DNA of 63,580 nt, the filler included, from an uncultured Methanosarcinales archaeon (GTDB taxonomy: Archaea > Nanobdellota > Nanobdellia > Woesearchaeales > CAYVYK01), in NCBI GenBank assembly GCA_964455675.1. It is 5 parts of 4 records of this genome, joined end to end, with 100 filler letters (N's around TTAATTAATTAA, not from the genome) between each part and the next. Parts side by side here need not be neighbours in the genome. Positions count along the whole stretch, not along the records: positions 24,346 to 39,953 come from CAYVYK010000007.1; 4 more parts are not named here. One strand, given 5' to 3'. The notes beneath the pieces are model-generated. The model saw only the letters and a list, made by a program, of their open reading frames with translations, searched no databases and was not told the origin of the DNA. The position numbers were made by a program, and so were the translations under genes. The first letter of the stretch is position 1; every line of letters starts with the position of its first letter. Below are positions 24,436 through 40,053 of the stretch, in pieces.

Positions 24436-24454
24436 AAGGAGACTTGCGATGTAG
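24436..24454 (+). promoter_or_regulatory. SD + ATG-TAG start-stop minimal ORF
   Basis: AAGGAG-ACTTGCG-ATG-TAG; same 7-nt spacing as the three copies at 33678-33816. Confidence 0.55.
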
Positions 24455-24478
24455 ACACTTAGTTCTGCGGTGGAAGAT

Positions 24479-24515
24479 GGGGTCTTCGCGTGCGTTGCGC
24501 GAAGACCCCTGTTTT
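24479..24515 (+). terminator. Terminator/attenuator-like hairpin in the ABC operon leader
   Basis: GGGGTCTTCGCG-TGCGTTG-CGCGAAGACCCC-TGTTTT. Confidence 0.7.
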
Positions 24516-24554
24516 GACAGGAACAGACATTTCTGGAACTATGGAGAATCACTC

Positions 24555-25769: not shown

Positions 25770-25876
25770 CTGCGTCCCGTCGCAACGACGGCAATGCACC
25801 TATGCCTGTGACTCGGCCAACCATGGCCGAGTCACGGGCCAGCATTGAGCAAAGGCAATCTACAGGAGAATTCCAA

Positions 25877-26689: not shown

Positions 26690-27906
26690 ACGGAAGACGC
26701 GAAAGCGACCACGTGGTGCTCACGGCAAGGAACGTGAATCACTGGTTCCGCAATCCTGACGGCACCCGGAAACACGTCCTGTACGACGTGAACCTCGAGG
26801 TGCCTCAGGGACAAGTGCTCGCCATCGTCGGGCCGAGCGGCGGCGGCAAGAGCACACTCATCAACTGCATCCTCGGTATCCTGCGGCCACAGAATGGCGA
26901 GATCATCCTGCACCGGAAAATGCCGGACGGCACGGTGCAGAACACCCTCGTACGCAACCCATCGCGGGACGTGGGCATCGTGTGGCAGCAGTACGCGCTC
27001 ACGGACAACCTGAAGGCGCAGGAAGACGTCGCGCTCGGGCCGAAGTTCGACCAGACGAGCCTGACGTACCGCAGCCTCGGCATCCTGTGGTGGGCGGTGA
27101 TCGGAATGCTCTTCTGGCTCCGTCGCAAGATCAGCTGGTGCCGGGTTCGGACACTGGGCAGGTTCTCGAGCATCCTCGAGCAGGAACCGATGGGTGCGCT
27201 TTACGCGAGCATCCTCACACCGATCTTCAGCGCGAAGGTTTGGCAAGAGGTTGTTCCACCGGCGATTGCCCGAGGCAAGCAACCCTGGTATAAGTCCTAC
27301 CAGTGGCGCAGACTCCGGCGGCAACACCTTGCTGAAGCGATCGAGCTCCTCAAAAAGCTCGGCCTCGAAGATGCGGTCGGCAAGTATCCGCACGAGCTGT
27401 CCGGCGGTATGAAGCAGCGCGTCGCGATCGCGCGGGCGCTCAACATGAAGCCCAAGATCCTGCTCATGGACGAGCCTTTCTCGGCAGTAGACCAGACGAC
27501 GCGCATCAAGCTCCAGAGTCTGATCATGACACTGTACCAAGAGAACCAGCAGGCGCTCGAACGCGGCGAGGATCCACCGCACACGGTGATCATCATCACG
27601 CACGAGCTCACGGAGGCGATCCTCGTCGGGTGCAGGGTTGCTGGCGTCTCGAAGTACTTCAAGCGCACTCCCGAGGACGAGAAGGACCCAAGGTCCAAGG
27701 GAGCGTCAACCATCGTGTACGATGCTGCAGCGCCGGTGTTTCGTCCCGACGTCGAGCGGGATGCAACTCTCTACCAGCAGTTCGGAGTGCAGCGCGCCGA
27801 GATCGAACGCACCGTGTTCTGTGATGACCCCTCGAAGTGGCCTCTGCGAGGGGAGGGCATCAGGTATTTCGACGAGGTCAAGCGTGTCCTTGTGGAAGAG
27901 AGGTGA
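26686..27906 (+). CDS. ABC transporter ATP-binding protein with internal insertion
   Basis: GPSGGGKST, Q-loop VWQ, LSGGMKQR, LMDEPF, ITH; ATGA overlap with the permease. Confidence 0.93.
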   Translation: MNGRRESDHVVLTARNVNHWFRNPDGTRKHVLYDVNLEVPQGQVLAIVGPSGGGKSTLINCILGILRPQNGEIILHRKMPDGTVQNTLVRNPSRDVGIVWQQYALTDNLKAQEDVALGPKFDQTSLTYRSLGILWWAVIGMLFWLRRKISWCRVRTLGRFSSILEQEPMGALYASILTPIFSAKVWQEVVPPAIARGKQPWYKSYQWRRLRRQHLAEAIELLKKLGLEDAVGKYPHELSGGMKQRVAIARALNMKPKILLMDEPFSAVDQTTRIKLQSLIMTLYQENQQALERGEDPPHTVIIITHELTEAILVGCRVAGVSKYFKRTPEDEKDPRSKGASTIVYDAAAPVFRPDVERDATLYQQFGVQRAEIERTVFCDDPSKWPLRGEGIRYFDEVKRVLVEER

Positions 27907-27908
27907 TC

Positions 27909-29732
27909 ATGGACTACCAATTCTACCGGAAGGTAGGAAGGATCATCACGTCGGGACAGACGCACAGTGTTGTCCTCACCGGCAACATTGATGATCTCTT
28001 CCACCTGGCCGAACGAGACGATTACGTCACGATCCAAGAACTCCTCCAGGCGAAATGGGGCGGCCTGAAGGAATACATCTTCATCGTGGCAGAACTGAAC
28101 GGCCCCATCAGGTTTTTCTCGGAAGCTGACCGTGACGCCGTGCGAAAGGCATGGGTGCTGCAGCGCACCGGAATGCCGGCGGCAACGTACGCGCTCTCGC
28201 GAGTGCTCGAGTCCCGCAAGGGTAAGGAAACACCGGACCACGCGGCAGACTTTGACCGCATGCTGCTGGAAGCTGCAGGCAATCCGCAGCGGACGCTCGA
28301 GGTACTCCGGCAGCTGTGCCTATGCTCGCGCATGAAGATCAAAGGCGAGCCGCTCCTGCCGGACAAGAACCTCATCATCCTGATCGAATCCGCGGACATG
28401 CTGATCCCGGCAAAGGAAATCGCCCAGCTATCCGACTCGGACCGGAGAAGCGTCTCCATCTGCGCGGACTGGTTCAGCGATCCGGGATTCTGCCGCGGCA
28501 AAGATGCGGTTGTGCTCCTCGCCGAGTCGAGAAGCTCGCTCAACCCCAAGATCGCGCGCCTGCCGCAGCTCGTCACCGTGGAGATACCATCTCCCGACAT
28601 CGATCAGCGGATCCACGCGATCAAGTGGTACGACGGATTGCAGGAGGAGGGCAAGAAGCTCAAGCTCTGGCGGGAGGATGTGACCACTGATACGGTCGCG
28701 ATGCTCACTGCAGGCCTCTCCGTCCAAGCCCTCATGCAGCTCCTCAGGTACGTCTGCCACTTCAACGAGACTCTGACACCGGACCACATCGTGGCCATGG
28801 TGGAAGAGTACATCAAGAGCCAGCTCGGCGAGGACGTGGTCGAGTTCCTTCGGCCGACGCACACGCTGAAGGACGTGATCGGATTCTCAAAGCTGAAAGA
28901 GTGGATGCTCAAGGAAATCGTCCCCCGCATCCAATCGCCAGCGAAGATCCAGGCCGTGCGCGGCGTCGGTGTTGCGGGACCCCTCGGCGCAGGAAAGACG
29001 TTCATCTGGTCGGCGATCGCAGGGATGCTCGGGATCCCGGTGCTCATCCTCAAGAACATCCGCAGCCAGTGGTTCGGGCAAACGGATGTCATCTTCGAGC
29101 GACTGCGGCGCGTGCTGCAAGCGCTTTCCAAGGTGCTCATCTTCGTGGATGAGGCTGACACTATGTTTGGAGGCGTTGGGCCGGACTCGCACGAGACCGA
29201 ACGGCGCCTCACCGGAAAGATCCAGGCCATGATGAGCGACCCCGCACTGCGCGGAAAGGTCACATGGTTTCTGATGACTGCGCGCATCCACCTGCTGTCG
29301 CCGGACATTCGCCGCATCGGACGCCTTGACGCCATCGTTCCGGTGCTCGACCCAGTCGGCGAGGACCGGACCGAGTTCCTGCGGTGGATCACGGATGACT
29401 TCGTCGAGCAGCCGGACATCACGCAAGGGTCGGCGCTCGAGCAGGCGATCGGCGAGTGCTCGGCGGCAGGGTTTGACAACTTGCGGACCCAGTTCGCCAG
29501 GGCGAAGGACAAGAAGGGCGGAAAGATCAGCAATGATGATGCTGTGAGTATCGCTCGCGACATCATTCCGCCCGACATCGATACCGCGCGGAGAATCCAA
29601 GAGCTGTACGCGCTACGGAACTGCACCGTGCGAACCCTCCTCCCGGACCCGAACGTGGACATCAAGAGTGCACGTACGACATGGGCGAAGGAGATCGCAT
29701 ACCTCGAATCGGCCGGCGCGCGAGCAGCGTAA
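27909..29732 (+). CDS. AAA+ ATPase (degenerate N-terminal module plus active C-terminal module)
   Basis: LKDVIG, Walker A GPLGAGKT, SQWFGQT pore loop, Walker B FVDEAD, RRIGRLD; SD GAGGTGA. Confidence 0.9.
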   Translation: MDYQFYRKVGRIITSGQTHSVVLTGNIDDLFHLAERDDYVTIQELLQAKWGGLKEYIFIVAELNGPIRFFSEADRDAVRKAWVLQRTGMPAATYALSRVLESRKGKETPDHAADFDRMLLEAAGNPQRTLEVLRQLCLCSRMKIKGEPLLPDKNLIILIESADMLIPAKEIAQLSDSDRRSVSICADWFSDPGFCRGKDAVVLLAESRSSLNPKIARLPQLVTVEIPSPDIDQRIHAIKWYDGLQEEGKKLKLWREDVTTDTVAMLTAGLSVQALMQLLRYVCHFNETLTPDHIVAMVEEYIKSQLGEDVVEFLRPTHTLKDVIGFSKLKEWMLKEIVPRIQSPAKIQAVRGVGVAGPLGAGKTFIWSAIAGMLGIPVLILKNIRSQWFGQTDVIFERLRRVLQALSKVLIFVDEADTMFGGVGPDSHETERRLTGKIQAMMSDPALRGKVTWFLMTARIHLLSPDIRRIGRLDAIVPVLDPVGEDRTEFLRWITDDFVEQPDITQGSALEQAIGECSAAGFDNLRTQFARAKDKKGGKISNDDAVSIARDIIPPDIDTARRIQELYALRNCTVRTLLPDPNVDIKSARTTWAKEIAYLESAGARAA

Positions 29733-29740
29733 CATTCAGA

Positions 29741-29783
29741 GCAAGGCGCACCCTGGAAGCTTTGCGGAAAGGGTGCGCCTTGC
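29741..29783 (+). other. Intergenic 14-bp stem hairpin
   Basis: GCAAGGCGCACCCT...AGGGTGCGCCTTGC, no U tract. Confidence 0.6.
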
Positions 29784-29792
29784 AGAGAGGAT

Positions 29793-30881
29793 ATGTGGAT
29801 GATTACTAAAGTGCCCAAGAACTTCAGGCCAATCGTGGAGGCCATCGGGAGAAAGTGCCACGAGAATGGCAAGGTCGGTGAATTCAACGAAGCGCACCCC
29901 CGCAACCGGCCCGTGACATACTTTTTCCAGGAAAGCACGGACGGACTCGTGCTGTTCGTCGTACTGTACACCATGGCGTGCAGGTACGGCCAGTGCCGGG
30001 GATGTAACCTCGTGTTCTCGGCGTCGCAGTATCCGGTACGGCACCGGGACCTGTTCGCGCAGATCAACTGGATATTCGACCAGGCAGACGTGCAGGCGAA
30101 CGCAGGACGAATCGAGAAGGTCATCTTCAGCAACCAGGGAAGCGTGCTTGACCAAGTCACGCTACCGGGCACCGTGCTCATGTACTTTGTGGGCATGATG
30201 AACGACCACTTCCCTCGGGTAAAGATCTTCTGCCCGGAAACCCGGATCTCGTTTATCGACAGCCACGAGATTGGTATGCTCCGAAATGCACTGCTTCAGG
30301 AGCGCCATCTGTGGGACAGCACGAAGGCCGAGCTGGAATTTGCCATCGGCATGGAAGCGTTTGATCCTGAAATCCGACGGTGGTATGACAAGGGCTTCCA
30401 CCGGTCGGAATTCCAGATCATGCTGGAACGGCACGCACGGCCGGCGCGGGACACCGTCCGCATCAAGATCCACTTCATGCAGAAGCCGATTGTCATGTCC
30501 GACGAAGACGCCGTGAGGGATGTCATGAACGGCATCGACTACCTCGCGGAACAGGCAACGGCCCATGGGGTGCGCATTAACATGCACCTCAATCCCACAT
30601 ACGCGGCGCGTCACACTTTCCTCGAGGAGAAGTTATACGCCGGCGATTGGGATCCGCCCAAACTGGAGGACGTCATCCGGGCCGTGCTCCACGCAAAGGG
30701 AAAGAACATCACGGTGTTCGTGGGGCTGAACGACGAAGGCATGGCGGTCACTCGACGCCCGGACGGCACTCCTGTGCAAGGCACGTGCCTGCGGCCGGAG
30801 CATGAGCACCTGCATGTCGCGATCGAGCAGTTCAACAAGACGGGCGACTTTACAGTTCTCGAGCGCGCGGTCGCGGCGTAA
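29793..30881 (+). CDS. Radical SAM protein, RaSEA/TIGR01210-like
   Basis: CRYGQCRGC, NQGSVLD, PETR, AIGME, MQKP..MSDEDAVRD, HLNPTY...T.LE...G.WDPP. Confidence 0.78.
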   Translation: MWMITKVPKNFRPIVEAIGRKCHENGKVGEFNEAHPRNRPVTYFFQESTDGLVLFVVLYTMACRYGQCRGCNLVFSASQYPVRHRDLFAQINWIFDQADVQANAGRIEKVIFSNQGSVLDQVTLPGTVLMYFVGMMNDHFPRVKIFCPETRISFIDSHEIGMLRNALLQERHLWDSTKAELEFAIGMEAFDPEIRRWYDKGFHRSEFQIMLERHARPARDTVRIKIHFMQKPIVMSDEDAVRDVMNGIDYLAEQATAHGVRINMHLNPTYAARHTFLEEKLYAGDWDPPKLEDVIRAVLHAKGKNITVFVGLNDEGMAVTRRPDGTPVQGTCLRPEHEHLHVAIEQFNKTGDFTVLERAVAA

Positions 30882-30943
30882 CACGTAGCAGGTCACCTTA
30901 GTACATAACGGTGAGGATCTCCTCACAGAAAGGACACCAGCAT

Positions 30944-31216
30944 ATGCTCGCGGTAATTATCACGGGCACGAACATCCTGGCCACGCTCGAGGGGCTATTG
31001 TTCCTCGCCGGATTCGCAGCTGCAGCCTTTATGGCATTCCACGGTTTCGCGGAAGGATTGGACTACGGCAGCTCGAGGAAGGACAGGGTGATCGCGATCG
31101 TTGTCAGCAGCTTCCTGGTCCTGCTTGGTCTGCTGCTCCTCGACTTCGCGCTGTACATGTTCATCGAGCAGCGACCGATCTTCTACTGGTTCACGGGACA
31201 CAGTATCGGGGCGTAA
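30944..31216 (+). CDS. Small two-TM membrane protein
   Basis: SD AAGGA, island-type codon usage. Confidence 0.7.
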   Translation: MLAVIITGTNILATLEGLLFLAGFAAAAFMAFHGFAEGLDYGSSRKDRVIAIVVSSFLVLLGLLLLDFALYMFIEQRPIFYWFTGHSIGA

Positions 31217-31278
31217 CCGCCACCGATGTTACTAACACAGGGACAAACACAGGGGACAATATTCCCCAAGGAGCATGT

Positions 31279-31839
31279 ATGAGCAAATGGAGAGACGCCG
31301 CAACGAAGATCGGGGATGGATTCGGGGAAGCATACGCAGCGGCGTGTGAGTCGCTCGGCAATCTCGTCGATAGCGCACAGAGCGCTGCCGCCGAAAGTAA
31401 GACCCTTCAATCGCTGCAGGAGCGTACGGACCAGCTCGGCAACGTCGCCCGGCAAAGCGTCCACGATCTGCTGCGTGTTGTGCAACCGCAGATCAAGGCG
31501 GTCTTGCCGGCACTGCGCAATCATGCACAGATGCTGCGCAGGAGCATCGAAGGGCTCGGGCATTTGCCGCAGTATGCGGAAACCGAACAGCAGACGCTGC
31601 AGCGATTGGCGGAGATCGAGGCGCAGATCCGCACGATCGAGGAAGGACTCGCGCAGATGCCCGAGCACGCGCCCGAGCCGATCATCACACCGCCACTGCC
31701 CCCCCTCACACCAGTGCCTGGCCCCTCAGACCAGCTCAAGCCGACGAAGATGTTCCCCAAGACGGCGCCGCGCACGAAGGGCAAGACGAAGAAAGCAGCG
31801 CCGCGCAAGAAGCCGATCAAGGCGACGCGGCGGAAGTAA
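31279..31839 (+). CDS. Coiled-coil protein with Pro-rich linker and Lys/Arg-rich tail
   Basis: SD AAGGAG; tail TKGKTKKAAPRKKPIKATRRK. Confidence 0.75.
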   Translation: MSKWRDAATKIGDGFGEAYAAACESLGNLVDSAQSAAAESKTLQSLQERTDQLGNVARQSVHDLLRVVQPQIKAVLPALRNHAQMLRRSIEGLGHLPQYAETEQQTLQRLAEIEAQIRTIEEGLAQMPEHAPEPIITPPLPPLTPVPGPSDQLKPTKMFPKTAPRTKGKTKKAAPRKKPIKATRRK

Positions 31840-31907
31840 GCACACCCACCGCAGCCAGCGGAGAACGTTTGTACTGATTCACAACTGCAACGAAAGGACA
31901 AGAACAG

Positions 31908-32174
31908 ATGATAATTGCGCAAGGCTGGTTCACATTCGGCAACGTGATCACGTTCATCGTTATGACCATTCTCGCGGCGTGGATCGTGAACAACCTCAAG
32001 ATCCCGAACTACCACATGGTGTGGATCATTCCCGCCGTCTGGGTTCTGTTCGGGATCGCGAAGTTCGTCATCGGCTGGACGCTCGCCGTCCTCGTTCCGA
32101 TCATCGCCATCGCGGCCATCATTGCGGTCGTCCTCCAGATGCAGAAGACCGCAGAAGGGAAGAAGGTGTCATGA
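31908..32174 (+). CDS. Small three-TM membrane protein
   Basis: SD AAGGA; hydrophobic; ATGA overlap with the next gene. Confidence 0.75.
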   Translation: MIIAQGWFTFGNVITFIVMTILAAWIVNNLKIPNYHMVWIIPAVWVLFGIAKFVIGWTLAVLVPIIAIAAIIAVVLQMQKTAEGKKVS

Positions 32175-32713
32175 AGACCACCACGAAGCTCGCGGTCATG
32201 CTCTGCATGCCGCTCCTCGTGTTCTGTCTTGGGGCTGACGGCGGCTGTGAGAATTCCAACGCTACCTTCAAGGACCCGAGCCAGGACGACCTCAAGAAGG
32301 GCGAGAACATCGACATCGTCCGGATGACCGGCGTTGTGATCTCCAAGGAGGTGAATTACTACGTCGGCGACCGGACCGAGACGAAGGAGAAGATCGGCAA
32401 ACCATACTACACGATCGGCATCCGCCGGGACGTGCAGAACACCCAGGCGCCGGCCGAGCTCTTTCACGGGGTCACGCCCGAAGTGTTTGACTCACTCAAC
32501 ATCGACCAGACGCTCCCCACGGACCGGATCTACACACTCGAAGAAGTCGTGCGGCTCGAAGGCAAGATCGTCGACAAGATCGTCGATGGGAACGAGTGGG
32601 GCATCGTCATCAACCAAGGCCTGCGGAACTACAGATACTTCCGCCTCACGCCGAGCGCGTTTTATGACGAACGCATCGGCGTCGGCGCAGAACTGCCACT
32701 GCGGATCGAGTAG
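32171..32713 (+). CDS. Secreted/lipoprotein-like protein with two OB-like repeats
   Basis: Signal peptide ending GADGGC; internal duplication (GVVISK..VTPEVFDSLNIDQTLP / GKIVDK..LTPSAFYDERIGVGAELP). Confidence 0.7.
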   Translation: MKTTTKLAVMLCMPLLVFCLGADGGCENSNATFKDPSQDDLKKGENIDIVRMTGVVISKEVNYYVGDRTETKEKIGKPYYTIGIRRDVQNTQAPAELFHGVTPEVFDSLNIDQTLPTDRIYTLEEVVRLEGKIVDKIVDGNEWGIVINQGLRNYRYFRLTPSAFYDERIGVGAELPLRIE

Positions 32714-32749
32714 TAGCGCGTACACGCGCAGAAAGGATGCATGCATTAG

Positions 32750-33625
32750 ATGTCAAGTATGACAGAATCAATCCACGCAAGTGCTGCGGCACTCGTGGCG
32801 TGCGAACGATTCCTCGGAGAGAATCGCACGTGGATGCCCTATGGCAAACATGCCGACCGACAGACGGCATTCCTCGTTATGTTCGAGCAGGCACGACGCG
32901 AGCTCGGGCAGCTGCCAATCGAGTCCATCGCGGAAATCGGCAACGAGGCGCCGGTCAACGAGTTCCTCGGAAAGAAGGGCGTCGACATTCGTCTGGGCAA
33001 GATCGTGTTCCCGCACATCGCAAGCGCAGCCGTGCTTGACTGCCTGATGACATGGGCAGTTCCTGGCACAAAGTGCAAGCTCCGGCCTGCAGGAAGTGGA
33101 ACCTTCTATCCGGCAGCAAGCATCAAGGGCGGATGCATGGTGTACAAGGTCCGCGGGCACATCGTCGTCTGCATCAGAACGACCGGCGCAGACAAGGTGT
33201 ATCTGACGTGTCCGAACGGCGCACCGGCGAGCAGTCACGAACTCTACGAGATCGGACGAACGCTTGCCAACAGTGAGAACCACGGCGAGCCAAGCGACTT
33301 TTCCGGCGTCCAGTTCCCGATGGTGAACCTGAAGTACCGCCCGGACATCAGCTACCTGCTCGGCCTCACGTGCCCAGACACCAAACTTGGGGTGCCGGGC
33401 GTGATCGAGCAAGCGCTGCAGGAAGTCTCAATACGGATGAACCACCTCGGCGCGCGTGTGAAGGACGCAGCAGCGTTCGAATCCAGAATGCTTTGCGCCG
33501 AGGATCCGTACGTGATCGACCGGCCGTTCGTCGCGACATTCCATCGCGACAATCTCGTGCTGCCGTACATGGTCGCATACTGCGACACGGACTGCTGGGC
33601 GGATCCTGGCGACCTGAACGCCTGA
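32750..33625 (+). CDS. Divergent serpin-like protein
   Basis: C-terminal EQALQEVSIRMNHLGARVKDAAA...YVIDRPFVATF matches the serpin hinge/RCL/DRPF layout. Confidence 0.6.
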   Translation: MSSMTESIHASAAALVACERFLGENRTWMPYGKHADRQTAFLVMFEQARRELGQLPIESIAEIGNEAPVNEFLGKKGVDIRLGKIVFPHIASAAVLDCLMTWAVPGTKCKLRPAGSGTFYPAASIKGGCMVYKVRGHIVVCIRTTGADKVYLTCPNGAPASSHELYEIGRTLANSENHGEPSDFSGVQFPMVNLKYRPDISYLLGLTCPDTKLGVPGVIEQALQEVSIRMNHLGARVKDAAAFESRMLCAEDPYVIDRPFVATFHRDNLVLPYMVAYCDTDCWADPGDLNA

Positions 33626-33677
33626 CCCGCGTTCCACTGGGTCGGCTTTTGAAGCACGTCACTGCCGCACAATCATC

Positions 33678-33836
33678 AGGAGGAAATGTCATGTAACCAA
33701 AAAGTTCCCGCGTAGCACGGGGACGGTAACCTTCTAGGAGGCAACATCATGTAGCATGGAACACTGCAGAGAGGAGGGGACGATTCACCAAGGCCTTTGG
33801 AGGATCTGCCATGTAACCACAGCGAGGGTTGGGACG
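33678..33836 (+). promoter_or_regulatory. Tandem array of three SD + ATG-stop minimal ORFs (~60-nt period)
   Basis: GGAGG-N7-ATGTAA (33691), GGAGG-N7-ATGTAG (33749), GGAGG-N7-ATGTAA (33811); each followed by GGGACG. Confidence 0.75.
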
Positions 33837-33851
33837 GATACGTAATCCATC

Positions 33852-33884
33852 GAGGGGTCTCGCGCGAGCGAGACCCCTCCTTTT
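33852..33884 (+). terminator. Terminator/attenuator-like hairpin with GNRA loop
   Basis: GAGGGGTCTCGC-GCGA-GCGAGACCCCTC-CTTTT directly before the SD of the next gene. Confidence 0.75.
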
Positions 33885-33897
33885 ACAGGAGGCAGCA

Positions 33898-34200
33898 ATG
33901 CCAAACATTGAAGTTCACGGAAGATTCAACAACCCAGACGGAAGCTTCACGGAAGCGTACACCATCTGGTGCGAAGTCGTACGGCGCGTTGCAAGACTGC
34001 CATTCCACAAGGATGCTGTCGTCACGAAGTGCGACTGCACATGCCAAGGATGGAATGACCAGGATGAGTTCGGCATCGAGATGCCGTTCATCAGGATCTG
34101 CGCCACGAAGCGGAGCCAGATCGACGACCTCATCTCATTTCTCTCTGGCATCGCGGACATCGAGATCCTCCCGCTTCAGGAGTTCATCCCGAAGCGGTAG
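33898..34200 (+). CDS. Small protein, possibly tautomerase-like (Pro1)
   Basis: SD AGGAGG; begins MPNIEVHG; fold assignment tentative. Confidence 0.6.
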   Translation: MPNIEVHGRFNNPDGSFTEAYTIWCEVVRRVARLPFHKDAVVTKCDCTCQGWNDQDEFGIEMPFIRICATKRSQIDDLISFLSGIADIEILPLQEFIPKR

Positions 34201-34236
34201 CACACGAGCAAAAACACCTCTATGGAGGACACAGCC

Positions 34237-34665
34237 ATGCGAAGAAAAGGGTTCACCCTCGTCGAGTTGCTGGTAATACTTGCGATCATCGGCCTCCTTG
34301 TCACGATGGTTATCGCAGGAATCAGTAACAAGCGAGAGCAGCTCCAGAAGCAACAAGCGACTCAAGCGACCGAGCAGCCAGCGGCGCTTCCTCCGATCAC
34401 GTTCTCGCTCTGCAACAAGGACCAGGGCGACCTCATCACCGCCGGCGACGTGATCGTCGTGACCTACCGCGGCGATCAGCCGACAGGCATTTACACGTGC
34501 AGACGCGCGCCCGTCAGTTTCGCGCAAGGGTCACTCGAGATCCAACACGTGGAGCGCCTCAAATACCGCGTCGAATACAAACCAGTCCTCGGGACGAAGA
34601 CATACTGGTTCACAGTCGAAAGCGTCCCGTCGGGACTTCAGTTCTTCTTTGACAAGGTCAACTAG
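34237..34665 (+). CDS. Prepilin-type N-terminal cleavage/methylation domain protein
   Basis: MRRKG-FTLVELLVILAIIGLL class III signal peptide with Glu+5; SD GGAGG. Confidence 0.85.
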   Translation: MRRKGFTLVELLVILAIIGLLVTMVIAGISNKREQLQKQQATQATEQPAALPPITFSLCNKDQGDLITAGDVIVVTYRGDQPTGIYTCRRAPVSFAQGSLEIQHVERLKYRVEYKPVLGTKTYWFTVESVPSGLQFFFDKVN

Positions 34666-34701
34666 CTCCGCTCAGCGGCGCACATTCAACGAAAGGACCC
34701 C

Positions 34702-37605
34702 ATGAAAACTCTTATCGTCCTCGTGTGTTGGGCCATTGCCGGATACTTCATCGGCAAGGTCATCAACCAGGCAGCGAAGAAGGAAACGTTCAACCTCAAG
34801 CGCACGATCATCGGCGCGATCTTCCTCGCGCTACCGTTCCCAATCTTCTGGGTGCTCGGCTTCTCTGCCGAAATGTTCTGGTACGACCAGCTCGGGTATA
34901 GCGCAAGGTTCTGGAAGGTGGTGTGGCTCGCGAAACTCACGCCAGTCGTCGCCGCAGTGGTGTACGGCCTCGTGATGTATCTCCTCACACTGCCCCTGCG
35001 CAAATCGCGCTGGACCAGAATCTGGCCGGAGGCCGTCGGCGCACTCACTGGGCTCATCGTGTTTCGGGTCGCGTGGCAGACGGTGATGCAGTACCTCAAC
35101 GGCGTGGACGTCGGCACGGTAGATCCGATCTTTGGCAAGGACATCGGGTTCTACCTCTTCACCCTGCCGATTTACAACATGATGTACTGGTCGCTCATGT
35201 TCCTCGCGAGCGTGCTCGTCGTTATCGGAATCGTGCACCTCGTGGAAGTCCACCCCGAGGACCGGTACTCCAACCGACACAAGATGTACAACGACGATGA
35301 CCGGCGACATTCGTGCAACGTCATTTCGTACAACATCGGTTGGCTCCTCATCGTGATGGCGTTCGGCTTCTGGCTCGACAAGTTCGACCTCCTCACGAGC
35401 AGCTGGGGATCCTTTACCGGCGTCAACTACGTGAGCGACCACGTCCGCATCCCGGCATACGGCATCCTGCAGTGGGTGTGCCTCCTTGCCGGAATCCTGA
35501 TGTTCTTCCCGGCACTGCTGCGCAAGATCCCCTTTGTGGGAAGGTTCAGAGTAGGTGACGAAGCAGAATCAGCAATTCCCGCGGGCTCGATCCTCTGCGT
35601 TCCGGCACTGCTCTTCCTTGTTTACGTGATTGGGTTCTGGGTATGCGCGCCCATCACGTACTACCTTAAGGTCAAGCCGAACGAGTACGCGTGCGAAGAG
35701 CCGTACATCAAACACAATATTGCGTTCACGCGCGCGGCATTCAACCTCGGCCAGGACGTGCTGACTGAGCATGACGTCAAGCTCTCGGATAGGGTCACAG
35801 CCGAAACCGTTCAGAGCTACCAGGATGTCCTCAGTCAAGTACGGCTTCTTGACTGGCGGCCGCACGAAGAAGTTCTGCACGAACTCCAGCGTGGCCGCAC
35901 GTACTACCGCATCGGCGACGTGGACGTCGATCGCTACTGGATTGGCGGGAAGTACACGCAAGTCATGATCGGCCCGCGCGAAATGGACATGAGCGCGCTG
36001 CCCGATGGCGCGAAGACATTCATCAACACACACATGCGCTACACGCACGGCCTTGGCGTATCCGTCGCGAGCGTTAGCGACTTTGAGGACTGCAGAGCGA
36101 AGCTACTCGTGCGCGACGTTCCGCCCAAGACGGACCATCCGGAACTTACCGCCCCCGAGTGGAGCATCTACTTTGGCGAGCTCACGGACAGCCACGTGTA
36201 CGTGAACACGACCGAACAAGAACTCCACTACGAAGGCGACAACGTGGATCACTTCTCCACGTACCAGGGACTTGGTGGTGTACCAATTACGAGCTTCTGG
36301 CGAAGGCTCGTCTTCGCGTACGAGCTCGACGGCCTCCGGCTCTTCACAGCGAGTGCTATCACGCCGCAAACGCGCGTCATGTACCAACGGAACATTTTCT
36401 CACGCGCAAAGAGCCTCGCGCCATTCCTGACGTATGACCAAGACCCGTACGTGGTGATCGCTCCTACTGTCACGAACATGGATGGAACGGACGAGATCAA
36501 CGCTCCGCACGGGCTCTTCTACATCATGGACGCGTACACATCAAGCACCCACTACCCATACTCAGAACCGTACAGGACGCATGAACACGACGGGAACCCG
36601 AACAAGGATCTCGACGGCGTCAATTACGTCCGCAATTCGGTGAAAGTGGTGGTCGATGCGTACAACGGCACGGTGAAGTTCTACATCAGTGACCCTACCG
36701 ACCCCATCATCCAGATGTGGTCGAAGATTTTCCCCGGGATGTTCCTGCCGCTGTCGGTCATGCCAAGCGAACTGCGCGCTCACATCCGCTATCCCGAGGA
36801 CATCTTCAACGTCCAGGCACGGATGTACGCACGCTACCACATGACAAATCCGAGCAGGTTCTACTCTGACTCGGATCGGTGGGTTCGTGCGACAGAGACA
36901 TACCATCAGGAATCGCAGCACCGCGTGCAGCCTTACTACATCATGTGGCGAGCACCTGAATCCCAGCAACCCGAGTACGTGATCATGGCTCCCTTCACGC
37001 CAAAGGACACGAACGTGATGGTGGGGTGGCTTGCCGCGCGGTGCGATCAGCCTAACTACGGCCAGCTGCTCGCGTACAAGTTCCCGAAAGAGCAAACGGT
37101 GCTCGGCCCGCAGCAATTTGACGCGCGGATGGACCAGCACGACCAGCTCTCCGCGCTCTTCTCACTCTGGGACCAGAAGGGCAGCACAGTCATCCGTGGG
37201 AATGTCCTTGTGATTCCGCTCGGCGACACGTACATCAACGTGAAGCCGATCTACCTCCAGGCGCAAGGAGCTAAGTTCCCGGAACTCAAACGCGTGGTCG
37301 TCGGCAACTCGAGTGGCATCGGCTTTGGCACGAGCCTCTCGGAAGCGCTTGATGACTTCCTCCACAAGGGAGGTTTGCGCGGTGAGTCCCGGATCGTCGG
37401 GATGCCCGAGAGCATCAACGTCGAGAGCAGGGGCTTCGCCCTTCCGACGGAGGTCGCTCAATACCAGACCCTCGCGACTGCCGCGAACAAAGCGTTTGAG
37501 CAATACCTGAAGCTGCAGGGCGAAGGTAAGTTCGTCGAGGCAGCACAGGAACTCGAGAAGGTCCGAGGGTACCTGCAGCAACTGACTGGACAAGCCGGCG
37601 ACTAG
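34702..37605 (+). CDS. UPF0182 (COG1615) membrane protein
   Basis: DPIFGKDIGFYLFTLP, NIAFTRAAF, DVDRY, YTHG, IYFGE, DPY, NYVRNSVKVVVDAYNG, RYP, IRGN. Confidence 0.93.
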   Translation: MKTLIVLVCWAIAGYFIGKVINQAAKKETFNLKRTIIGAIFLALPFPIFWVLGFSAEMFWYDQLGYSARFWKVVWLAKLTPVVAAVVYGLVMYLLTLPLRKSRWTRIWPEAVGALTGLIVFRVAWQTVMQYLNGVDVGTVDPIFGKDIGFYLFTLPIYNMMYWSLMFLASVLVVIGIVHLVEVHPEDRYSNRHKMYNDDDRRHSCNVISYNIGWLLIVMAFGFWLDKFDLLTSSWGSFTGVNYVSDHVRIPAYGILQWVCLLAGILMFFPALLRKIPFVGRFRVGDEAESAIPAGSILCVPALLFLVYVIGFWVCAPITYYLKVKPNEYACEEPYIKHNIAFTRAAFNLGQDVLTEHDVKLSDRVTAETVQSYQDVLSQVRLLDWRPHEEVLHELQRGRTYYRIGDVDVDRYWIGGKYTQVMIGPREMDMSALPDGAKTFINTHMRYTHGLGVSVASVSDFEDCRAKLLVRDVPPKTDHPELTAPEWSIYFGELTDSHVYVNTTEQELHYEGDNVDHFSTYQGLGGVPITSFWRRLVFAYELDGLRLFTASAITPQTRVMYQRNIFSRAKSLAPFLTYDQDPYVVIAPTVTNMDGTDEINAPHGLFYIMDAYTSSTHYPYSEPYRTHEHDGNPNKDLDGVNYVRNSVKVVVDAYNGTVKFYISDPTDPIIQMWSKIFPGMFLPLSVMPSELRAHIRYPEDIFNVQARMYARYHMTNPSRFYSDSDRWVRATETYHQESQHRVQPYYIMWRAPESQQPEYVIMAPFTPKDTNVMVGWLAARCDQPNYGQLLAYKFPKEQTVLGPQQFDARMDQHDQLSALFSLWDQKGSTVIRGNVLVIPLGDTYINVKPIYLQAQGAKFPELKRVVVGNSSGIGFGTSLSEALDDFLHKGGLRGESRIVGMPESINVESRGFALPTEVAQYQTLATAANKAFEQYLKLQGEGKFVEAAQELEKVRGYLQQLTGQAGD

Positions 37606-37641
37606 TCGCTGACGCAATACGGCCCTGTTTCGCTTCCACAC

Positions 37642-37690
37642 AGCAAGCCAGATTCTTCCCTATGAGGGTTGAGTTTGGCTTGCTTTTTTT
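37642..37690 (+). terminator. Intrinsic terminator ending the island operon
   Basis: AGCAAGCCAGATTC...GAGTTTGGCTTGCT followed by a T tract. Confidence 0.8.
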
Positions 37691-37723
37691 GGTATTTTAT
37701 TTCTATATGGTAATTATTTATGG

Positions 37724-37769
37724 AAAAAAAGGGGATACCCCCGGGCGAATGGCTCGCCAAGGGGTATCC
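37724..37769 (-). terminator. Convergent intrinsic terminator
   Basis: Minus strand GGATACCCC...GGGGTATCC then CC and T7. Confidence 0.7.
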
Positions 37770-37781
37770 GAACGGTCAGAC

Positions 37782-37982
37782 CTACACGCTCAACGGAGTC
37801 CTCCCACGAGATGTGCACCTGCGCGACTGACGATGGGGTCCCACGTAGGCATCGCAGCACTTGTCACAGAAGGTGCGACCCCTCGGAACCTTGCGCTTGC
37901 ACAGGCGACACGTGGGCTCGGGCTCTGATGTGGTTTCCTTGCCCTGATTTCCGTTTGAGCTAGAAGGAACACAAACCGTCAT
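37782..37982 (-). CDS. Small Zn-finger protein
   Basis: CRLC-x10-CDKC; purine-rich leader and a terminator directly downstream. Confidence 0.55.
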   Translation of the reverse strand: MTVCVPSSSNGNQGKETTSEPEPTCRLCKRKVPRGRTFCDKCCDAYVGPHRQSRRCTSRGRTPLSV

Positions 37983-38490
37983 CTTCCACTCAATCCTTTC
38001 TGCGGAATCATTCCGCTTGGGACAATTGCCTCTTCTCCCACTCCGACCGTTTCATACCCAATGCTTCCTTACCCACTCCGGAGAGCACCACTACCAGCCA
38101 CGGTAGTATCCAAATTTCTCCCTCACTCGCTAAATTGCCTCATCATAGTACCAACCCCGTTGGGTTACGTGTATGTATACTTCCTCTCGGAAGGTTATGG
38201 TTACCACTAGCAAGAATTAGTACTGCCCAACATCCGAAAAACGATAGTTCTCCGAATTCCAGCAAGTTCCAGGCGTAAGATATGCCCTACCCGCGACACC
38301 CGACCGCAAAGCTTCCGTGAAGCAAAGCTGGAAAGGACCACGATGAACTGGAACGGCGTCAAGCCATCTAAACACAATTAAATTTTTGAAGGCGAAAGGA
38401 GCCACAGTCCCTTAATAAAGGTTTCATTTATATGCAAAAAACCAGGCAATAGCCGAAAGATTCTTATTTGGAAAGAAGGCATCCATTATC

Positions 38491-39075
38491 ATGAGTGAAC
38501 TCGTTGTTCCAGAATATGAAAGCAAGCATCCGTTTGTTCGACGATTGTTTCATCGCAGGCTCCGAACAGCCATATGCATGGATGACCAACACGGCGCAAT
38601 CCTTGACGCCGGATGCGGTGATGGATACCTTGGAACTCGTATTCACAACAGAGAGATCATAGGCATTGATATTTCTCCAGAAAAATGTGTGTACCCTGCA
38701 AGGTATCGATCCGTTGTTGGAGGAGCGCTGAACGCACTCCCCTTCTCAGATTCTAGATTCCACACGATCTTCTGCCTTGATGTACTTGAGCACATCCCCG
38801 ATATTAACAAAGCAACAAGTGAGCTTGCGCGAGTACTTGCGCCGGGAGGATGCCTCATTCTTAGCATCCCAACAGAAAGCTTTCTCTACCGAGTAAGTAG
38901 ACTCCTCACGAGCGGTCGATGGAACGAACCGAGCACGGGCAAGGATGAACATCATTACCATACATCCGAGGGGGTCCTCAGGGCTATCCGAGCGCACTTC
39001 ATCATCGACCGGAAGAGAGTGCTCCCGTATCGATGGTTCCCGCTCTTCCTCATCGTGCGATGCAGAAAACGCTAA
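38491..39075 (+). CDS. Class I SAM-dependent methyltransferase
   Basis: ILDAGCGDG, GIDIS, LPF, DVLEHI, RVLAPGG. Confidence 0.92.
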   Translation: MSELVVPEYESKHPFVRRLFHRRLRTAICMDDQHGAILDAGCGDGYLGTRIHNREIIGIDISPEKCVYPARYRSVVGGALNALPFSDSRFHTIFCLDVLEHIPDINKATSELARVLAPGGCLILSIPTESFLYRVSRLLTSGRWNEPSTGKDEHHYHTSEGVLRAIRAHFIIDRKRVLPYRWFPLFLIVRCRKR

Positions 39076-39953
39076 TGCAGTTTCTTATTCATGTCAGCAA
39101 GAAATCCAAGCATGATGATCTGCAATCCCGACAGCAAGAGGAACAACATCAACACGAGCTGACCAGTACTCAATTTCCCAGGAGTAAAAAAATGAAGGTA
39201 TGTAAATCTCAGCCCGAGAATAAATCCAATTCCAAAAAGAAAAGATCCGACACGGCCAAAGAATTTCAACGGCTGATAGTCACGATACACCCGAAGGATG
39301 TTCACCCAAGCACGCATTGCATAACCAAAAGGGTTGTTAATCAATCGGCTCGTTGTGCCACCACCACGCCGTGCAAAATAGGTCGGAACTTCCGCAATCT
39401 TAAACTTCGCCCAAACTGCATGAATGATCTGCTCCTGGGTGTAAGTGTGATCTGAGGTGATCTGTATCTTTTCTGCAACCTCACGCGTAAACGCCCGAAA
39501 TCCAGTCTGACAATCAGAAATAGGAAACTTCACGATCTGCGAAATCACATGAGAAAACGCCTGGTTCCCCCACCTCTTAATGAGCGGCATCTCCTGAATG
39601 CCACCTCGGAATCTGCTACCAAGCACAAGATCAAAGCCCTCCTCCACTTTCTTGACCATCCTTGGGATGTCAGACGCCTGATACTGACCATCAGCGTCGG
39701 TATGCACAATAATATCCGCCTTTCGTGCAATACACTGCTCCATCTCTGTCCTGAACGCAGCAGCAAGACCAAGATTCCTCGGATGGGAGATTACAATTGC
39801 GCCATGAGCTTTTGCCACCTTCACCGTCCCGTCCTTGCTCCCATCATCTATTACCAGCAGTTCATACTGATAATTCGTTTTCCTCATGACTGCATGGATC
39901 CCATCAAGCACGGAAGCTAGCGTACGCTCCTCATTGTACGCGGGGATAGTCAC
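39072..39953 (-). CDS. GT2 glycosyltransferase (polyprenol-phosphate mannosyltransferase-like), 5'-partial
   Basis: IPAYNEE, IDDGSKD, TDADGQY, VLGSR, DCQTGFR, two C-terminal TMs. Confidence 0.93.
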   Translation of the reverse strand: MTIPAYNEERTLASVLDGIHAVMRKTNYQYELLVIDDGSKDGTVKVAKAHGAIVISHPRNLGLAAAFRTEMEQCIARKADIIVHTDADGQYQASDIPRMVKKVEEGFDLVLGSRFRGGIQEMPLIKRWGNQAFSHVISQIVKFPISDCQTGFRAFTREVAEKIQITSDHTYTQEQIIHAVWAKFKIAEVPTYFARRGGGTTSRLINNPFGYAMRAWVNILRVYRDYQPLKFFGRVGSFLFGIGFILGLRFTYLHFFTPGKLSTGQLVLMLFLLLSGLQIIMLGFLADMNKKLH

Positions 39954-40053
39954 NNNNNNNNNNNNNNNNNNNNNNNNNNNNNNNNNNNNNNNNNNNNTTA
40001 ATTAATTAANNNNNNNNNNNNNNNNNNNNNNNNNNNNNNNNNNNNNNNNNNNN
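39954..40053. other. Artificial contig linker
   Basis: N44-TTAATTAATTAA-N44. Confidence 0.97.

What the first reader, a model, noticed from the sequence alone, without database searches (positions are those of the whole stretch)
33678..33900. Tandem array of Shine-Dalgarno + ATG-stop minimal ORFs ahead of a terminator: candidate ribosome-sensing leader or ribosome-binding RNA
Seen: the 270-nt gap between the serpin-like gene and the 33898 gene holds three units 58 and 62 nt apart. They are AGGAGG-AAATGTC-ATG-TAA, AGGAGG-CAACATC-ATG-TAG and TGGAGG-ATCTGCC-ATG-TAA. Each has exactly 7 nt between SD and ATG, and each has GGGACG 14-23 nt after the stop. Everything else has diverged, and the stop switches synonymously (TAA/TAG), so the translation signals look like the conserved part. 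A 12-bp GNRA-capped hairpin plus CTTTT follows and abuts the next gene's SD. Known: minigenes (lambda bar) and start-stop uORFs can stall or sequester ribosomes. Inference: this is a peptide-less attenuator sensing initiation, release or recycling, or a stand-alone RNA that titrates ribosomes. I know of no described arrayed version.
Basis: partly seen in the sequence, partly recalled or inferred. Interest (0 to 1): 0.82.

Follow-up and report, generated by a model that had tools for sequence, protein, structure and literature searches.

The report
Three empty start-stop ribosome sites before terminator
A 272-base gap between two genes carries three perfect ribosome-binding sites whose start codon is followed at once by a stop codon, just ahead of a terminator hairpin; it looks like a peptide-free regulatory leader, but it is known from this one contig only and no function has been tested.

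Summary
GGAGG-N7-ATG-TAR occurs three times within 140 nt and nowhere else in 63.6 kb (0.02 expected). Outside the motifs the units are only 24-38% identical. A 12-bp GNRA hairpin plus CTTTT follows, 13 nt before the start codon of a real gene.

New points:
- A fourth start-stop lies 24 nt upstream of a paralogous hairpin-terminator, in the leader of an ABC-transporter operon on the same contig.
[quoted passage not shown] It lies 2.1 kcal/mol above the optimum, closer than all 566 controls. A ribosome footprint on that unit restores the terminator in silico.
- No Rfam, plasmid or phage match was found.
- A two-unit scan of 185,579 genomes gave 11 hits, all plain tandem repeats.
- The window is a chain of contigs joined by artificial linkers.

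Best reading (confidence 0.35): a cis-acting leader in which ribosome occupancy of zero-length ORFs chooses between terminator and antiterminator. A free ribosome-titrating RNA is not supported. Conservation across genomes could not be tested.

The parts
32750..33625 (+). Upstream gene P0001 (291 aa), distantly serpin-related. Its stop codon opens the 272-nt gap.
   Evidence: ORF list and translation. One relative, P0006, at 34% identity, which matches Pfam Serpin C-terminal positions 295-367 of 370. P0001 itself has no Pfam or NCBIfam match.
33626..33897 (+). Intercistronic leader holding the array and the hairpin. It is by far the longest gap in a run of same-strand genes; by my reading of the ORF coordinates the other gaps are about 35-65 nt or overlaps.
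   Evidence: No Rfam family reaches its threshold. No plasmid or phage DNA match.
33678..33696 (+). Unit 1: AGGAGG, 7 nt, ATG, TAA.
33736..33754 (+). Unit 2: AGGAGG, 7 nt, ATG, TAG. Another ATG lies one base after the stop.
33798..33816 (+). Unit 3: TGGAGG, 7 nt, ATG, TAA. It is the unit nearest the terminator. Its SD is the most paired of the three in the ensemble (unpaired probability 0.21).
33720..33725 (+). GGGACG after unit 1. It forms the 3' arm of a small hairpin, 33704-33724 (-10.8 kcal/mol).
33777..33782 (+). GGGACG after unit 2. It is part of AGAGAGGAGGGGACGA (33768-33783), which is complementary to the terminator's 3' arm plus U tract.
   Evidence: -20.1 kcal/mol; 7 of 1000 shuffles do as well.
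33831..33836 (+). GGGACG after unit 3.
33756..33845 (+). 29-codon ORF. It starts one base after the stop of unit 2, runs through unit 3 in another frame, and stops 6 nt before the terminator stem. It is a candidate conventional leader peptide (rival explanation).
   Evidence: No evidence that it is translated.
33764..33888 (+). Alternative long imperfect hairpin: 33764-33823 pairs with 33828-33888. It buries the SD of unit 3, the terminator's 5' arm and the U tract.
   Evidence: It lies 2.1 kcal/mol above the optimum for 33756-33890. None of 300 shuffles, 250 natural segments of the contig or 16 GGAGG-bearing segments came as close. In longer contexts the gap is 5.5-6.6 kcal/mol.
33852..33884 (+). 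Terminator-like hairpin (12 bp, GCGA loop, -26.0 kcal/mol) followed by CTTTT.
   Evidence: Sub-threshold Rfam hits (sX12, BjrC68) cover essentially this hairpin plus a short upstream stem-loop. The consensus terminator scan does not list it because it has only 4 T.
33888..34200 (+). SD (33888-33893) and coding sequence (33898-34200) of P0005, a 100-aa protein with a tautomerase-superfamily fold.
   Evidence: 16 remote homologues. Invariant Met1, and Pro2 and Asn3 in at least 90% of 17 sequences, which fixes the start codon. AlphaFold2 pLDDT 93.4. Foldseek hits to DUF1904, MIF, cis-CaaD, CHMI and fused 4-OT.
24437..24516 (+). Second module on the same contig: AGGAG 24437-24441, 7 nt, ATG 24449, TAG 24452-24454, then 24 nt, then hairpin 24479-24509 with a T-run. 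It lies upstream of the substrate-binding protein gene of an ABC transporter (ATG 24555).
   Evidence: Hairpins of the form GGGGTC...GACCCC occur only twice in the window (expected 0.05). Hairpin plus tail are similar to 33854-33892 (0 of 500 shuffles).

Best explanation
The three units are real ribosome-binding sites with zero-length reading frames. They sit in the untranslated RNA between the serpin-like gene and the tautomerase-like gene P0005.

Proposed mechanism:
1. As the RNA is made, the region around unit 3 (33791-33809) can pair with the stretch that includes the terminator's 5' arm (33842-33860).
2. The purine-rich stretch after unit 2 (33764-33789) can then pair with the 3' arm and the U tract (33862-33888).
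3. This long helix prevents the 12-bp terminator from forming and leaves the SD of P0005 free, so transcription and translation run on.
4. If a ribosome occupies unit 3 at that moment, the 5' arm stays free, the terminator forms, and P0005, the pilin-like gene and the UPF0182 gene are not expressed.
5. Because start is followed at once by stop, occupancy depends only on initiation and release, not on any amino acid.
6. Units 1 and 2 either add ribosome-loading sites or are older copies of the same module kept under the same constraint.

What is shown: the motifs, their selective conservation, their position in the leader, the competing fold in silico, and a second start-stop before a paralogous terminator. 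What is inferred: that ribosomes bind there, that the hairpin terminates, the direction of the switch, and the signal sensed.
For: - Three exact motifs against 0.02 expected.
- Identity outside the motifs is 24-38%. The only change inside ATG-TAR is TAA/TAG.
- The SD-to-ATG spacing of 7 nt falls within the range used by real genes on the contig (GGAGG-N5 and N8).
- The start of P0005 is fixed by an invariant Met1 and near-invariant Pro2 and Asn3, so the hairpin's T-run lies 13 nt upstream of it. No promoter-like site was found on the + strand.
- The unit 3 region pairs with the 5'-arm region at -19.0 kcal/mol; 11 of 1000 shuffles do as well. 33768-33783 pairs with the 3' arm plus tail at -20.1; 7 of 1000.
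- The alternative fold is 2.1 kcal/mol above the optimum. None of 300 shuffles, 250 natural segments or 16 GGAGG segments came as close.
- With a footprint on unit 3 the full terminator forms.
- Of 12 SD-plus-start-stop sites found with a loose definition on both strands, only the ones at 24449 and 33811 are followed by a hairpin of -26 kcal/mol or better with a T-run. Those two hairpins are paralogous.
Against: - All support is from one contig. No homologous locus was seen, so there is no covariation and no proof of conservation.
- At equilibrium in the full leader the terminator wins: pair probabilities are 0.95-1.00, and the gap to the alternative fold is 5.5-6.6 kcal/mol.
- The leader as a whole is not unusually structured (z = -1.25).
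- The second leader (24346-24520) shows no bistability: its gap is 13.9 kcal/mol, and 215 of 300 shuffles do as well. Its SD region is not significantly complementary to its terminator (380 and 779 of 1000). That leader is cut by the contig end.
- The T-run has only four T, so the hairpin may be a weak terminator.
- Units 1 and 2 have no assigned role.
- The downstream genes (tautomerase-like, pilin-like, UPF0182) give no reason to sense ribosome state.
- The bin carries archaeal-type tRNA introns. If the host is an archaeon, hairpin-dependent termination is not the expected mechanism.
- No similar array exists in 185,579 representative genomes at the exact pattern.
Confidence: 0.35

Rival explanations
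1. Ribosome-loading pads without sensing. The start-stops keep ribosomes on a long untranslated intercistronic stretch. This protects the RNA from nucleases or from factor-dependent termination, as an SD-like stabiliser does. The hairpin is a constitutive partial terminator or an RNA-end stabiliser that sets the ratio of upstream to downstream gene expression.
For: - The same module (start-stop, hairpin, T-run, ACAGGA) stands before two unrelated gene sets, as expected of a generic expression element.
- The gap is the longest in the gene run.
- The units are evenly spaced, 58 and 62 nt apart.
- The second leader has no alternative fold.
Against: - An SD alone would do for stabilisation; this does not explain the strict ATG plus stop.
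- It does not explain the competing fold around unit 3.
- The SD of unit 3 is mostly paired in the ensemble (0.21 unpaired), which is odd for a constitutive loading site.
Confidence: 0.22
2. A conventional leader-peptide attenuator. Ribosomes released at the stop of unit 2 restart one base later and translate the 29-codon ORF 33756-33845. That ORF ends 6 nt before the terminator stem, so a ribosome at its end would mask the 5' arm. The start-stops are feeders or by-products.
For: - The ORF geometry.
- The ORF runs through both halves of the alternative helix.
Against: - Its ATG is 14 nt from the SD of unit 2.
- By my reading of the translation, the peptide has no run of a regulatory amino acid.
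- It does not explain units 1 and 3, or the single start-stop of the other leader, which has no such ORF.
- No relatives are available to test conservation.
Confidence: 0.1
3. Repeated binding sites on DNA or RNA for a protein, with a bipartite motif GGAGG-N7-ATGTAR plus GGGACG. The resemblance to translation signals is incidental.
For: - Fixed spacing and extra conserved bases that translation does not obviously need: C before ATG, C after the stop, and GGGACG.
- No consistent RNA structure is shared by the units.
Against: - The motif is a textbook ribosome-binding site with the spacing used by neighbouring genes.
- The only variable base inside ATG-TAR is the one that keeps a stop.
- No DNA-binding protein gene is recognisable next to it.
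- The distance from the motif to GGGACG varies from 14 to 23 nt.
Confidence: 0.08
4. A stand-alone small RNA that soaks up ribosomes or another SD-binding factor such as a CsrA-like protein. It would end at the hairpin.
For: - Several exposed GGA/GGAGG motifs followed by a terminator hairpin resemble sponge RNAs (resemblance recalled, not tested).
- Sub-threshold Rfam hits to small RNAs.
Against: - Those Rfam hits cover essentially the hairpin plus a short upstream stem-loop and are below threshold (29.7 against 106 bits; 28.9 against 39).
- No promoter-like site upstream.
- Three sites could not titrate a ribosome pool.
- No conservation is known.
- No CsrA gene was looked for.
Confidence: 0.05
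5. A transcript of the opposite strand carrying three CCTCC anti-SD-like motifs. It would use the small hairpin with its T-run at 33721-33707 as terminator and block ribosome-binding sites of other mRNAs.
For: - A terminator-like site on the minus strand.
- The minus strand folds somewhat better than shuffles (z = -2.09).
Against: - It does not explain ATG-TAR.
- The minus-strand terminator lies between units 1 and 2, so it would split the array.
- No promoter was found, and the 53-aa minus-strand ORF has no relatives.
Confidence: 0.04

Closest known systems
Start-Stop sites inside E. coli genes (Ribo-RET study, 10.1101/520783; passages read)
   Same: An SD-like sequence, a start codon and an immediate stop. 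Ribosomes were shown to bind there (toeprints with an initiation and a termination inhibitor). No product is made, and a modest regulatory effect was seen (about 16% on yecJ).
   Different: Those 14 sites are single, lie out of frame inside coding sequences, and have no terminator. Here there are three in a row in a non-coding leader before a hairpin. The authors state that operational Start-Stops had not previously been reported within bacterial or archaeal genes.
Eukaryotic start-stop upstream ORFs (plant NIP5;1 AUGUAA, PMC11915504; human start-stop elements, PMC13338717; search listings and abstract beginnings only)
   Same: A zero-length ORF in a 5' leader acts as a ribosome stall or gate without elongation. 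AUGUAA is the very hexamer of units 1 and 3.
   Different: Those work through cap-dependent scanning and mRNA decay. They have no SD and no transcription terminator.
Leader-peptide transcription attenuators (trp/his type and antibiotic-responsive leaders; recalled, no paper read)
   Same: The position of a ribosome on a short leader ORF decides between terminator and antiterminator folds upstream of the regulated gene.
   Different: Known cases need decoding of at least a few sense codons. Here no codon after the start is decoded, so no amino acid or nascent peptide can be the signal.
Upstream ribosome-binding sites that are occupied but silent (Sinorhizobium meliloti, PMC13285730; abstract and passages read)
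   Same: An SD plus start in a leader binds ribosomes and regulates without a detectable product.
   Different: The proposed mechanism there is direct occlusion of a main RBS 3-25 nt away. Here the nearest unit is 87 nt from the gene's ATG, with a hairpin in between.
Minigenes (lambda bar, recalled; axe-txe minigene, PMC8708949, search listing only) and the STAB-SD stabiliser of cry mRNAs (listing only; mechanism recalled)
   Same: Very short ORFs, or SD sequences without a gene, that act through ribosome binding.
   Different: Minigenes have at least two sense codons and act through peptidyl-tRNA drop-off. STAB-SD has no start or stop codon. Neither is arrayed before a terminator.
Type III toxin-antitoxin loci (ToxIN type; architecture recalled)
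   Same: The order: repeat array, terminator hairpin, small protein gene.
   Different: Those repeats are near-identical tandem copies. Here Tandem Repeats Finder finds none and identity is 24-38%. P0005 has a tautomerase-like fold, not an endoribonuclease fold, and has no PADLOC hit.

Membership tests
Start-stop (zero-length) upstream ORF | [quoted passage not shown] | tested here: met
   ATG-TAA, ATG-TAG and ATG-TAA at 33691, 33749 and 33811. The position upstream of the P0005 start is fixed by family alignment.
Start-stop (zero-length) upstream ORF | A ribosome-recruiting signal in functional register | tested here: met
   GGAGG exactly 7 nt before each ATG. Genes on the contig use GGAGG at 5-8 nt.
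Start-stop (zero-length) upstream ORF | Ribosomes actually initiate there | not testable with these tools
   Needs toeprinting or ribosome profiling.
Ribosome-dependent transcription attenuator | An intrinsic terminator between the leader ORF and the regulated gene | tested here: inconclusive
   A 12-bp hairpin of -26 kcal/mol, but only CTTTT follows. The consensus scan does not call it. The paralogous hairpin at 24479-24509 is called. The host domain is uncertain.
Ribosome-dependent transcription attenuator | A mutually exclusive antiterminator fold whose formation depends on ribosome position | tested here: inconclusive
   Met in silico for leader B: gap of 2.1 kcal/mol, matched by none of 566 controls, and a footprint restores the terminator. 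Not met for leader A. No covariation test was possible.
Ribosome-dependent transcription attenuator | A leader ORF with sense codons whose decoding is the signal | tested here: not met
   The units have no sense codon after ATG. The only longer ORF (29 codons) has no support.
Any Rfam family | Score at or above the family's gathering threshold | tested here: not met
   Only tRNAs pass in the window. In 33500-34000 the best hits are sX12 (29.7 against 106 bits) and BjrC68 (28.9 against 39), which cover essentially the hairpin plus a short upstream stem-loop. Leader A gives nothing meaningful.
Type III toxin-antitoxin RNA array | Near-identical tandem RNA repeats | tested here: not met
   Tandem Repeats Finder gives 0 rows. 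Identity outside the motifs is 24-38%.
Type III toxin-antitoxin RNA array | A downstream ToxN/AbiQ-like endoribonuclease | tested here: not met
   P0005 has no Pfam, NCBIfam or PADLOC hit and a tautomerase-superfamily fold.
CsrA/Rsm-type sponge RNA | Several GGA motifs in hairpin loops, an own promoter, and a csrA gene in the genome | not tested
   GGA motifs are present, but their loop placement is not consistent. No promoter-like site was found. csrA was not searched for.
Decayed coding sequence | Residual similarity to a protein in some frame | tested here: inconclusive
   The longest ORF in the gap (53 aa, minus strand) has no relative. The other frames were not searched. No DNA match in plasmids or phages.

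The most novel reading that the evidence does not exclude
This is the first example of a peptide-free attenuator. An array of zero-length ORFs works as a pure ribosome-occupancy sensor, reading initiation and release capacity rather than any amino acid, antibiotic-arrested peptide or metabolite. It flips a terminator/antiterminator switch inside an operon, and a single-unit version of the same module controls an ABC-transporter operon in the same genome.
Probability: 0.22. Interest if true: 0.8.

Novelty: new variant of a known kind. Interest (0 to 1): 0.55.

Why it matters
Start-stops are established regulators in eukaryotes. In bacteria they have been seen only as isolated sites inside E. 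coli genes, with small effects.

A leader that uses several of them before a terminator would show that prokaryotes can couple gene expression to the state of the translation machinery without decoding a single sense codon. It would also give a compact, testable model for how initiation and termination kinetics are read out.

My searches of the held literature found no arrayed prokaryotic case.

The caveat is heavy: one contig, no homologues seen, and no experiment.

Tried and rejected
- **Rfam:** searched at gathering and at permissive thresholds. Only terminator-like sub-threshold hits.
- **Tandem Repeats Finder:** nothing.
- **Representative genomes:** the two-unit pattern gave 11 loci. All are plain tandem repeats. 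In 9 the paired motifs share 6-7 of 7 spacer bases. In L001 and L005 the period is 21 and 33 nt. None has GGGACG. My own estimate of the chance expectation under uniform base composition is about 8, and lower with real composition. The window's own genome was not hit.
- **Plasmid and phage collections:** no match with the DNA or with P0005.
- **Relatives of flanking proteins by word search:** P0005 found only itself. P0001 found one relative.
- **Minus-strand 53-aa ORF:** no relative.
- **Protein atlas:** uninformative for P0005 (best score 0.79) and for the taxonomy of UPF0182.
- **Single-sequence fold of P0005:** poor, pLDDT 55. Superseded by the alignment-based model.
- **PDB profile search:** nothing.
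- **PADLOC:** nothing relevant.
- **Similarity of the two leaders outside the hairpin:** not significant (87/500 and 145/500).
- **Pairing of units 1 and 2 with the terminator's 5' arm:** not significant (703 and 235 of 1000).
- **Read-through or alternative genetic codes:** considered by eye only and rejected. Genes are intact under table 11, and the P0005 family has a fixed N-terminus.
- **Integron attC, iterons and box C/D RNA:** considered from memory and dropped for lack of matching motifs.
- **'GC island' idea:** withdrawn for the left edge, which is an artificial contig join.
- **Closed collections:** metagenome and viral contig collections stayed unchecked.
Full report
**1.

Reading 33400-34100 shows three units on the + strand:
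- Unit 1: AGGAGG (33678-33683), 7 nt, ATG (33691), TAA.
- Unit 2: AGGAGG (33736-33741), 7 nt, ATG (33749), TAG.
- Unit 3: TGGAGG (33798-33803), 7 nt, ATG (33811), TAA.

The pattern GGAGG-N7-ATGTAR matches three times in the 63,580-base window on both strands, all here. Shuffles give 0.02 on average, and 0 of 100 reach three. GGGACG follows 23, 22 and 14 nt after the stops.

In ungapped register, identity outside the motif is 19/50, 17/50 and 12/50, and Tandem Repeats Finder sees no repeat. So either the units are old duplicates in which only the translation signals were kept, or they arose separately. Both readings imply constraint on SD, spacing, start and stop. The only difference inside ATG-TAR is TAA against TAG.

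A 12-bp hairpin with a GCGA loop (33852-33879, -26.0 kcal/mol) and CTTTT follow. Then come AGGAGG (33888-33893) and the ATG at 33898.

**2. Context, and a correction about the window**

The window is not one piece of DNA. It is a chain of contigs joined by artificial linkers (44 N, TTAATTAATTAA, 44 N) at 7791-7890, 24246-24345, 39954-40053 and 45488-45587.

The finding lies on the 15,608-nt segment 24346-39953. Its GC is 0.576, against 0.45-0.50 for the other segments, and within it GC drops to 0.49 after about 37.65 kb. Tetranucleotide signatures of this segment correlate with the larger neighbours at 0.80-0.82, within the range seen among the other segments. So neither mis-binning nor common origin is settled.

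Other segments carry tRNA genes with a 48-nt insertion at the canonical intron position, which points to an archaeal bin. The array contig, in contrast, has SD-led genes, a bacterial-type prepilin motif and hairpin-plus-T terminators.

All genes of the segment up to 37605 are on the + strand:
- an ABC transporter (binding protein, permease, ATPase);
- an AAA ATPase;
- several proteins without a family;
- a lipoprotein-like ORF;
- P0001;
- the gap with the array;
- P0005;
- a pilin-like protein whose true start is 34237;
- a 967-aa UPF0182 protein.

**3. The flanking genes**

P0001 (291 aa) has no family hit of its own. Its only relative, P0006 (34% identity over 97% of the query), matches the C-terminal part of Pfam Serpin (E 9e-7). 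'Serpin-like' is therefore a fair but indirect label.

P0005 (100 aa) found only itself in the word-based search, but the exhaustive HMMER search gave 16 relatives at 35-43% identity. In the alignment Met1 is invariant, and Pro2 and Asn3 are present in at least 90% of the 17 sequences. This fixes the start codon at 33898.

The alignment-based model is confident (pLDDT 93.4). Its best structural matches are DUF1904, MIF, cis-CaaD, CHMI and fused 4-oxalocrotonate tautomerase (E 5e-4 to 9e-3, TM 0.34-0.55). It is thus a small tautomerase-superfamily protein with the N-terminal proline. That this proline is catalytic in the superfamily is recalled, not tested.

Because the T-run ends 13 nt before this start, and no promoter-like site lies on the + strand between 33000 and 34700, P0005 can only be expressed from RNA that has passed through the array and the hairpin. 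The array is therefore a leader or intercistronic element, not a free gene.

**4. A second copy of the module**

At the very start of the same contig there is another start-stop module:
- AGGAG (24437-24441), 7 nt, ATG (24449), TAG;
- 24 nt later, a 14-pair hairpin (24479-24509) with a T-run;
- 45 nt later, the start of the signal-peptide-bearing binding protein of the ABC transporter (24555).

Hairpins of the form GGGGTC...GACCCC occur only twice in the window, at these two places (expected 0.05). Hairpin plus tail, including TTTT and ACAGGA, align significantly (0 of 500 shuffles). The rest of the two leaders does not (87/500 and 145/500).

With a loose definition (four- or five-base SD, 4-10 nt, ATG/GTG/TTG, any stop) there are 12 SD-start-stop sites on both strands of the window. 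Only those at 24449 and 33811 are followed by a hairpin of -26 kcal/mol or better with a T-run. So 'start-stop, then this terminator' recurs before two unrelated gene sets.

**5. A competing fold**

When the RNA is folded only up to the terminator's 5' arm, that arm pairs with the region of unit 3. Two duplexes stand out:
- 33790-33810 with 33842-33861: -19.0 kcal/mol; 11 of 1000 shuffles do as well.
- 33768-33783, which contains the GGGACG of unit 2, with the 3' arm plus U tract: -20.1 kcal/mol; 7 of 1000.

Together they make one long imperfect hairpin, 33764-33823 against 33828-33888, with the ATG-TAA of unit 3 near its tip.

For 33756-33890 this fold lies 2.1 kcal/mol above the optimum. None of the controls came as close:
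- 300 shuffles of the upstream part (mean gap 15.0);
- 250 natural segments of the same contig (mean 14.1);
- 16 segments with GGAGG placed at the position of unit 3's SD (smallest gap 6.8).

Forcing a 30-nt ribosome footprint on unit 3 gives back the full 12-bp terminator.

Against this, in the full leader the gap is 5.5-6.6 kcal/mol and the terminator has pair probabilities of 0.95-1.00. Any switch would therefore have to be kinetic. The other leader has no such competing fold (gap 13.9; 215 of 300 shuffles do as well). The leader as a whole is not unusually stable (z = -1.25).

**6. Searches elsewhere**

- No Rfam family reaches its threshold. The sub-threshold hits cover essentially the hairpin plus a short upstream stem-loop.
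- No DNA match in 72,556 plasmids or 50,697 phage records, and no tblastn match for P0005.
- The two-unit pattern in 185,579 representative genomes gave 11 loci. All 11 are ordinary tandem repeats in which the motif happens to lie in the repeat unit: spacer identity is 6-7 of 7 in nine loci, and the period is 21 or 33 nt in two. None looks like this array, where the spacers share 4 and 1 of 7 bases.
- The window's own genome was not among the hits.
- Looser versions of the pattern, and the metagenome and viral collections, were not searched.

**7. Interpretation**

The most economical reading is that these are working ribosome-binding sites with zero-length ORFs in a regulatory leader, and that occupancy of the terminator-proximal unit decides between the long helix (read-through, with the P0005 SD free) and the terminator. 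I give this 0.35.

The rivals are:
- constitutive ribosome-loading or stabiliser pads (0.22);
- a conventional 29-codon leader peptide fed by restart after unit 2 (0.10);
- protein-binding repeats (0.08);
- a free sponge RNA (0.05);
- an opposite-strand RNA with CCTCC motifs (0.04).

A type III toxin-antitoxin array is rejected on repeat identity and on the protein's fold.

**8. Comparison with what is known**

- Start-Stops inside E. coli genes bind ribosomes and change expression slightly. The authors state that operational Start-Stops had not previously been reported within bacterial or archaeal genes (passages of 10.1101/520783).
- Occupied but silent upstream ribosome-binding sites that act by occlusion are described in S. 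meliloti (PMC13285730, abstract and passages).
- Eukaryotic start-stops, including AUGUAA of NIP5;1, are established (search listings only).
- My searches for arrayed or leader start-stops in prokaryotes found none. These searches cover only the held open-access library.

The element works like a leader attenuator, but it fails that family's defining need for decoded sense codons. I therefore file it as a new variant of a known kind, not as a member.

**9. Verdict**

It is plausibly functional, but it is known from a single contig and has no comparative or experimental support. Interest 0.55.

Noticed in passing
7791-7890, 24246-24345, 39954-40053, 45488-45587 (and a plain 100-N gap at 7074-7173): The window is a chain of separate contigs joined by artificial linkers (44 N, TTAATTAATTAA, 44 N). 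Features that seem to span these joins, such as the left edge of the 'GC island', are artefacts of concatenation.
   Followed up: yes
24437-24516: A single SD-ATG-TAG start-stop lies 24 nt before a hairpin-terminator paralogous to the one at 33852-33884. It sits in the leader of an ABC-transporter operon. The leader is cut by the contig end.
   Followed up: yes
33898-34200: P0005 belongs to a small unnamed family: 16 remote relatives, an invariant Met1, and near-invariant Pro2 and Asn3 at the N-terminus. A confident model has a tautomerase-superfamily fold (DUF1904, MIF, cis-CaaD-like). No Pfam or NCBIfam model covers it.
   Followed up: yes
45588-45708 (+) and 2-128 (-): tRNA genes of 121 and 127 nt. 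The first has a 48-nt insertion right after the anticodon loop position (anticodon CAT), as in archaeal tRNA introns. ARAGORN in bacterial mode misses both.
   Followed up: partly
24346-37650 against 37651-39953: Inside one contig GC falls from 0.59 to 0.49 just after the UPF0182 gene and its hairpin-plus-T7 terminator (about 37648-37690). About 800 nt without a long ORF follow (37700-38490). This could be the true edge of a foreign island.
   Followed up: partly
34237-34665: A pilin-like protein with a bacterial-type prepilin cleavage/methylation motif (Pfam N_methyl, E 5e-7). Its real start is probably 34237, with GGAGG 8 nt upstream, not 34222. This is unexpected if the bin is archaeal.
   Followed up: partly
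31316-32713: This 465-aa ORF is probably not one gene. Its first two thirds read as arginine-rich nonsense, and a lipoprotein-like signal sequence begins at about 32231. A separate coiled-coil-like ORF, 31279-31839, overlaps it.
   Followed up: no
33707-33721 (-): The small hairpin after unit 1 is followed on the minus strand by a run of five T. It is listed as terminator-like for the opposite strand.
   Followed up: partly
33621-33648: A weak hairpin (GACCC, 10 nt, GGGTC) followed by GGCTTTT overlaps the stop codon of P0001. It could be a partial terminator of the upstream gene, read by eye only.
   Followed up: no
33691, 33811, 33898: The ATGs of units 1 and 3 are in the same reading frame as the P0005 start, and that frame contains only TAA stops in between. 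I judged this a coincidence, because the read-through product is arginine-rich and the family N-terminus is fixed.
   Followed up: partly
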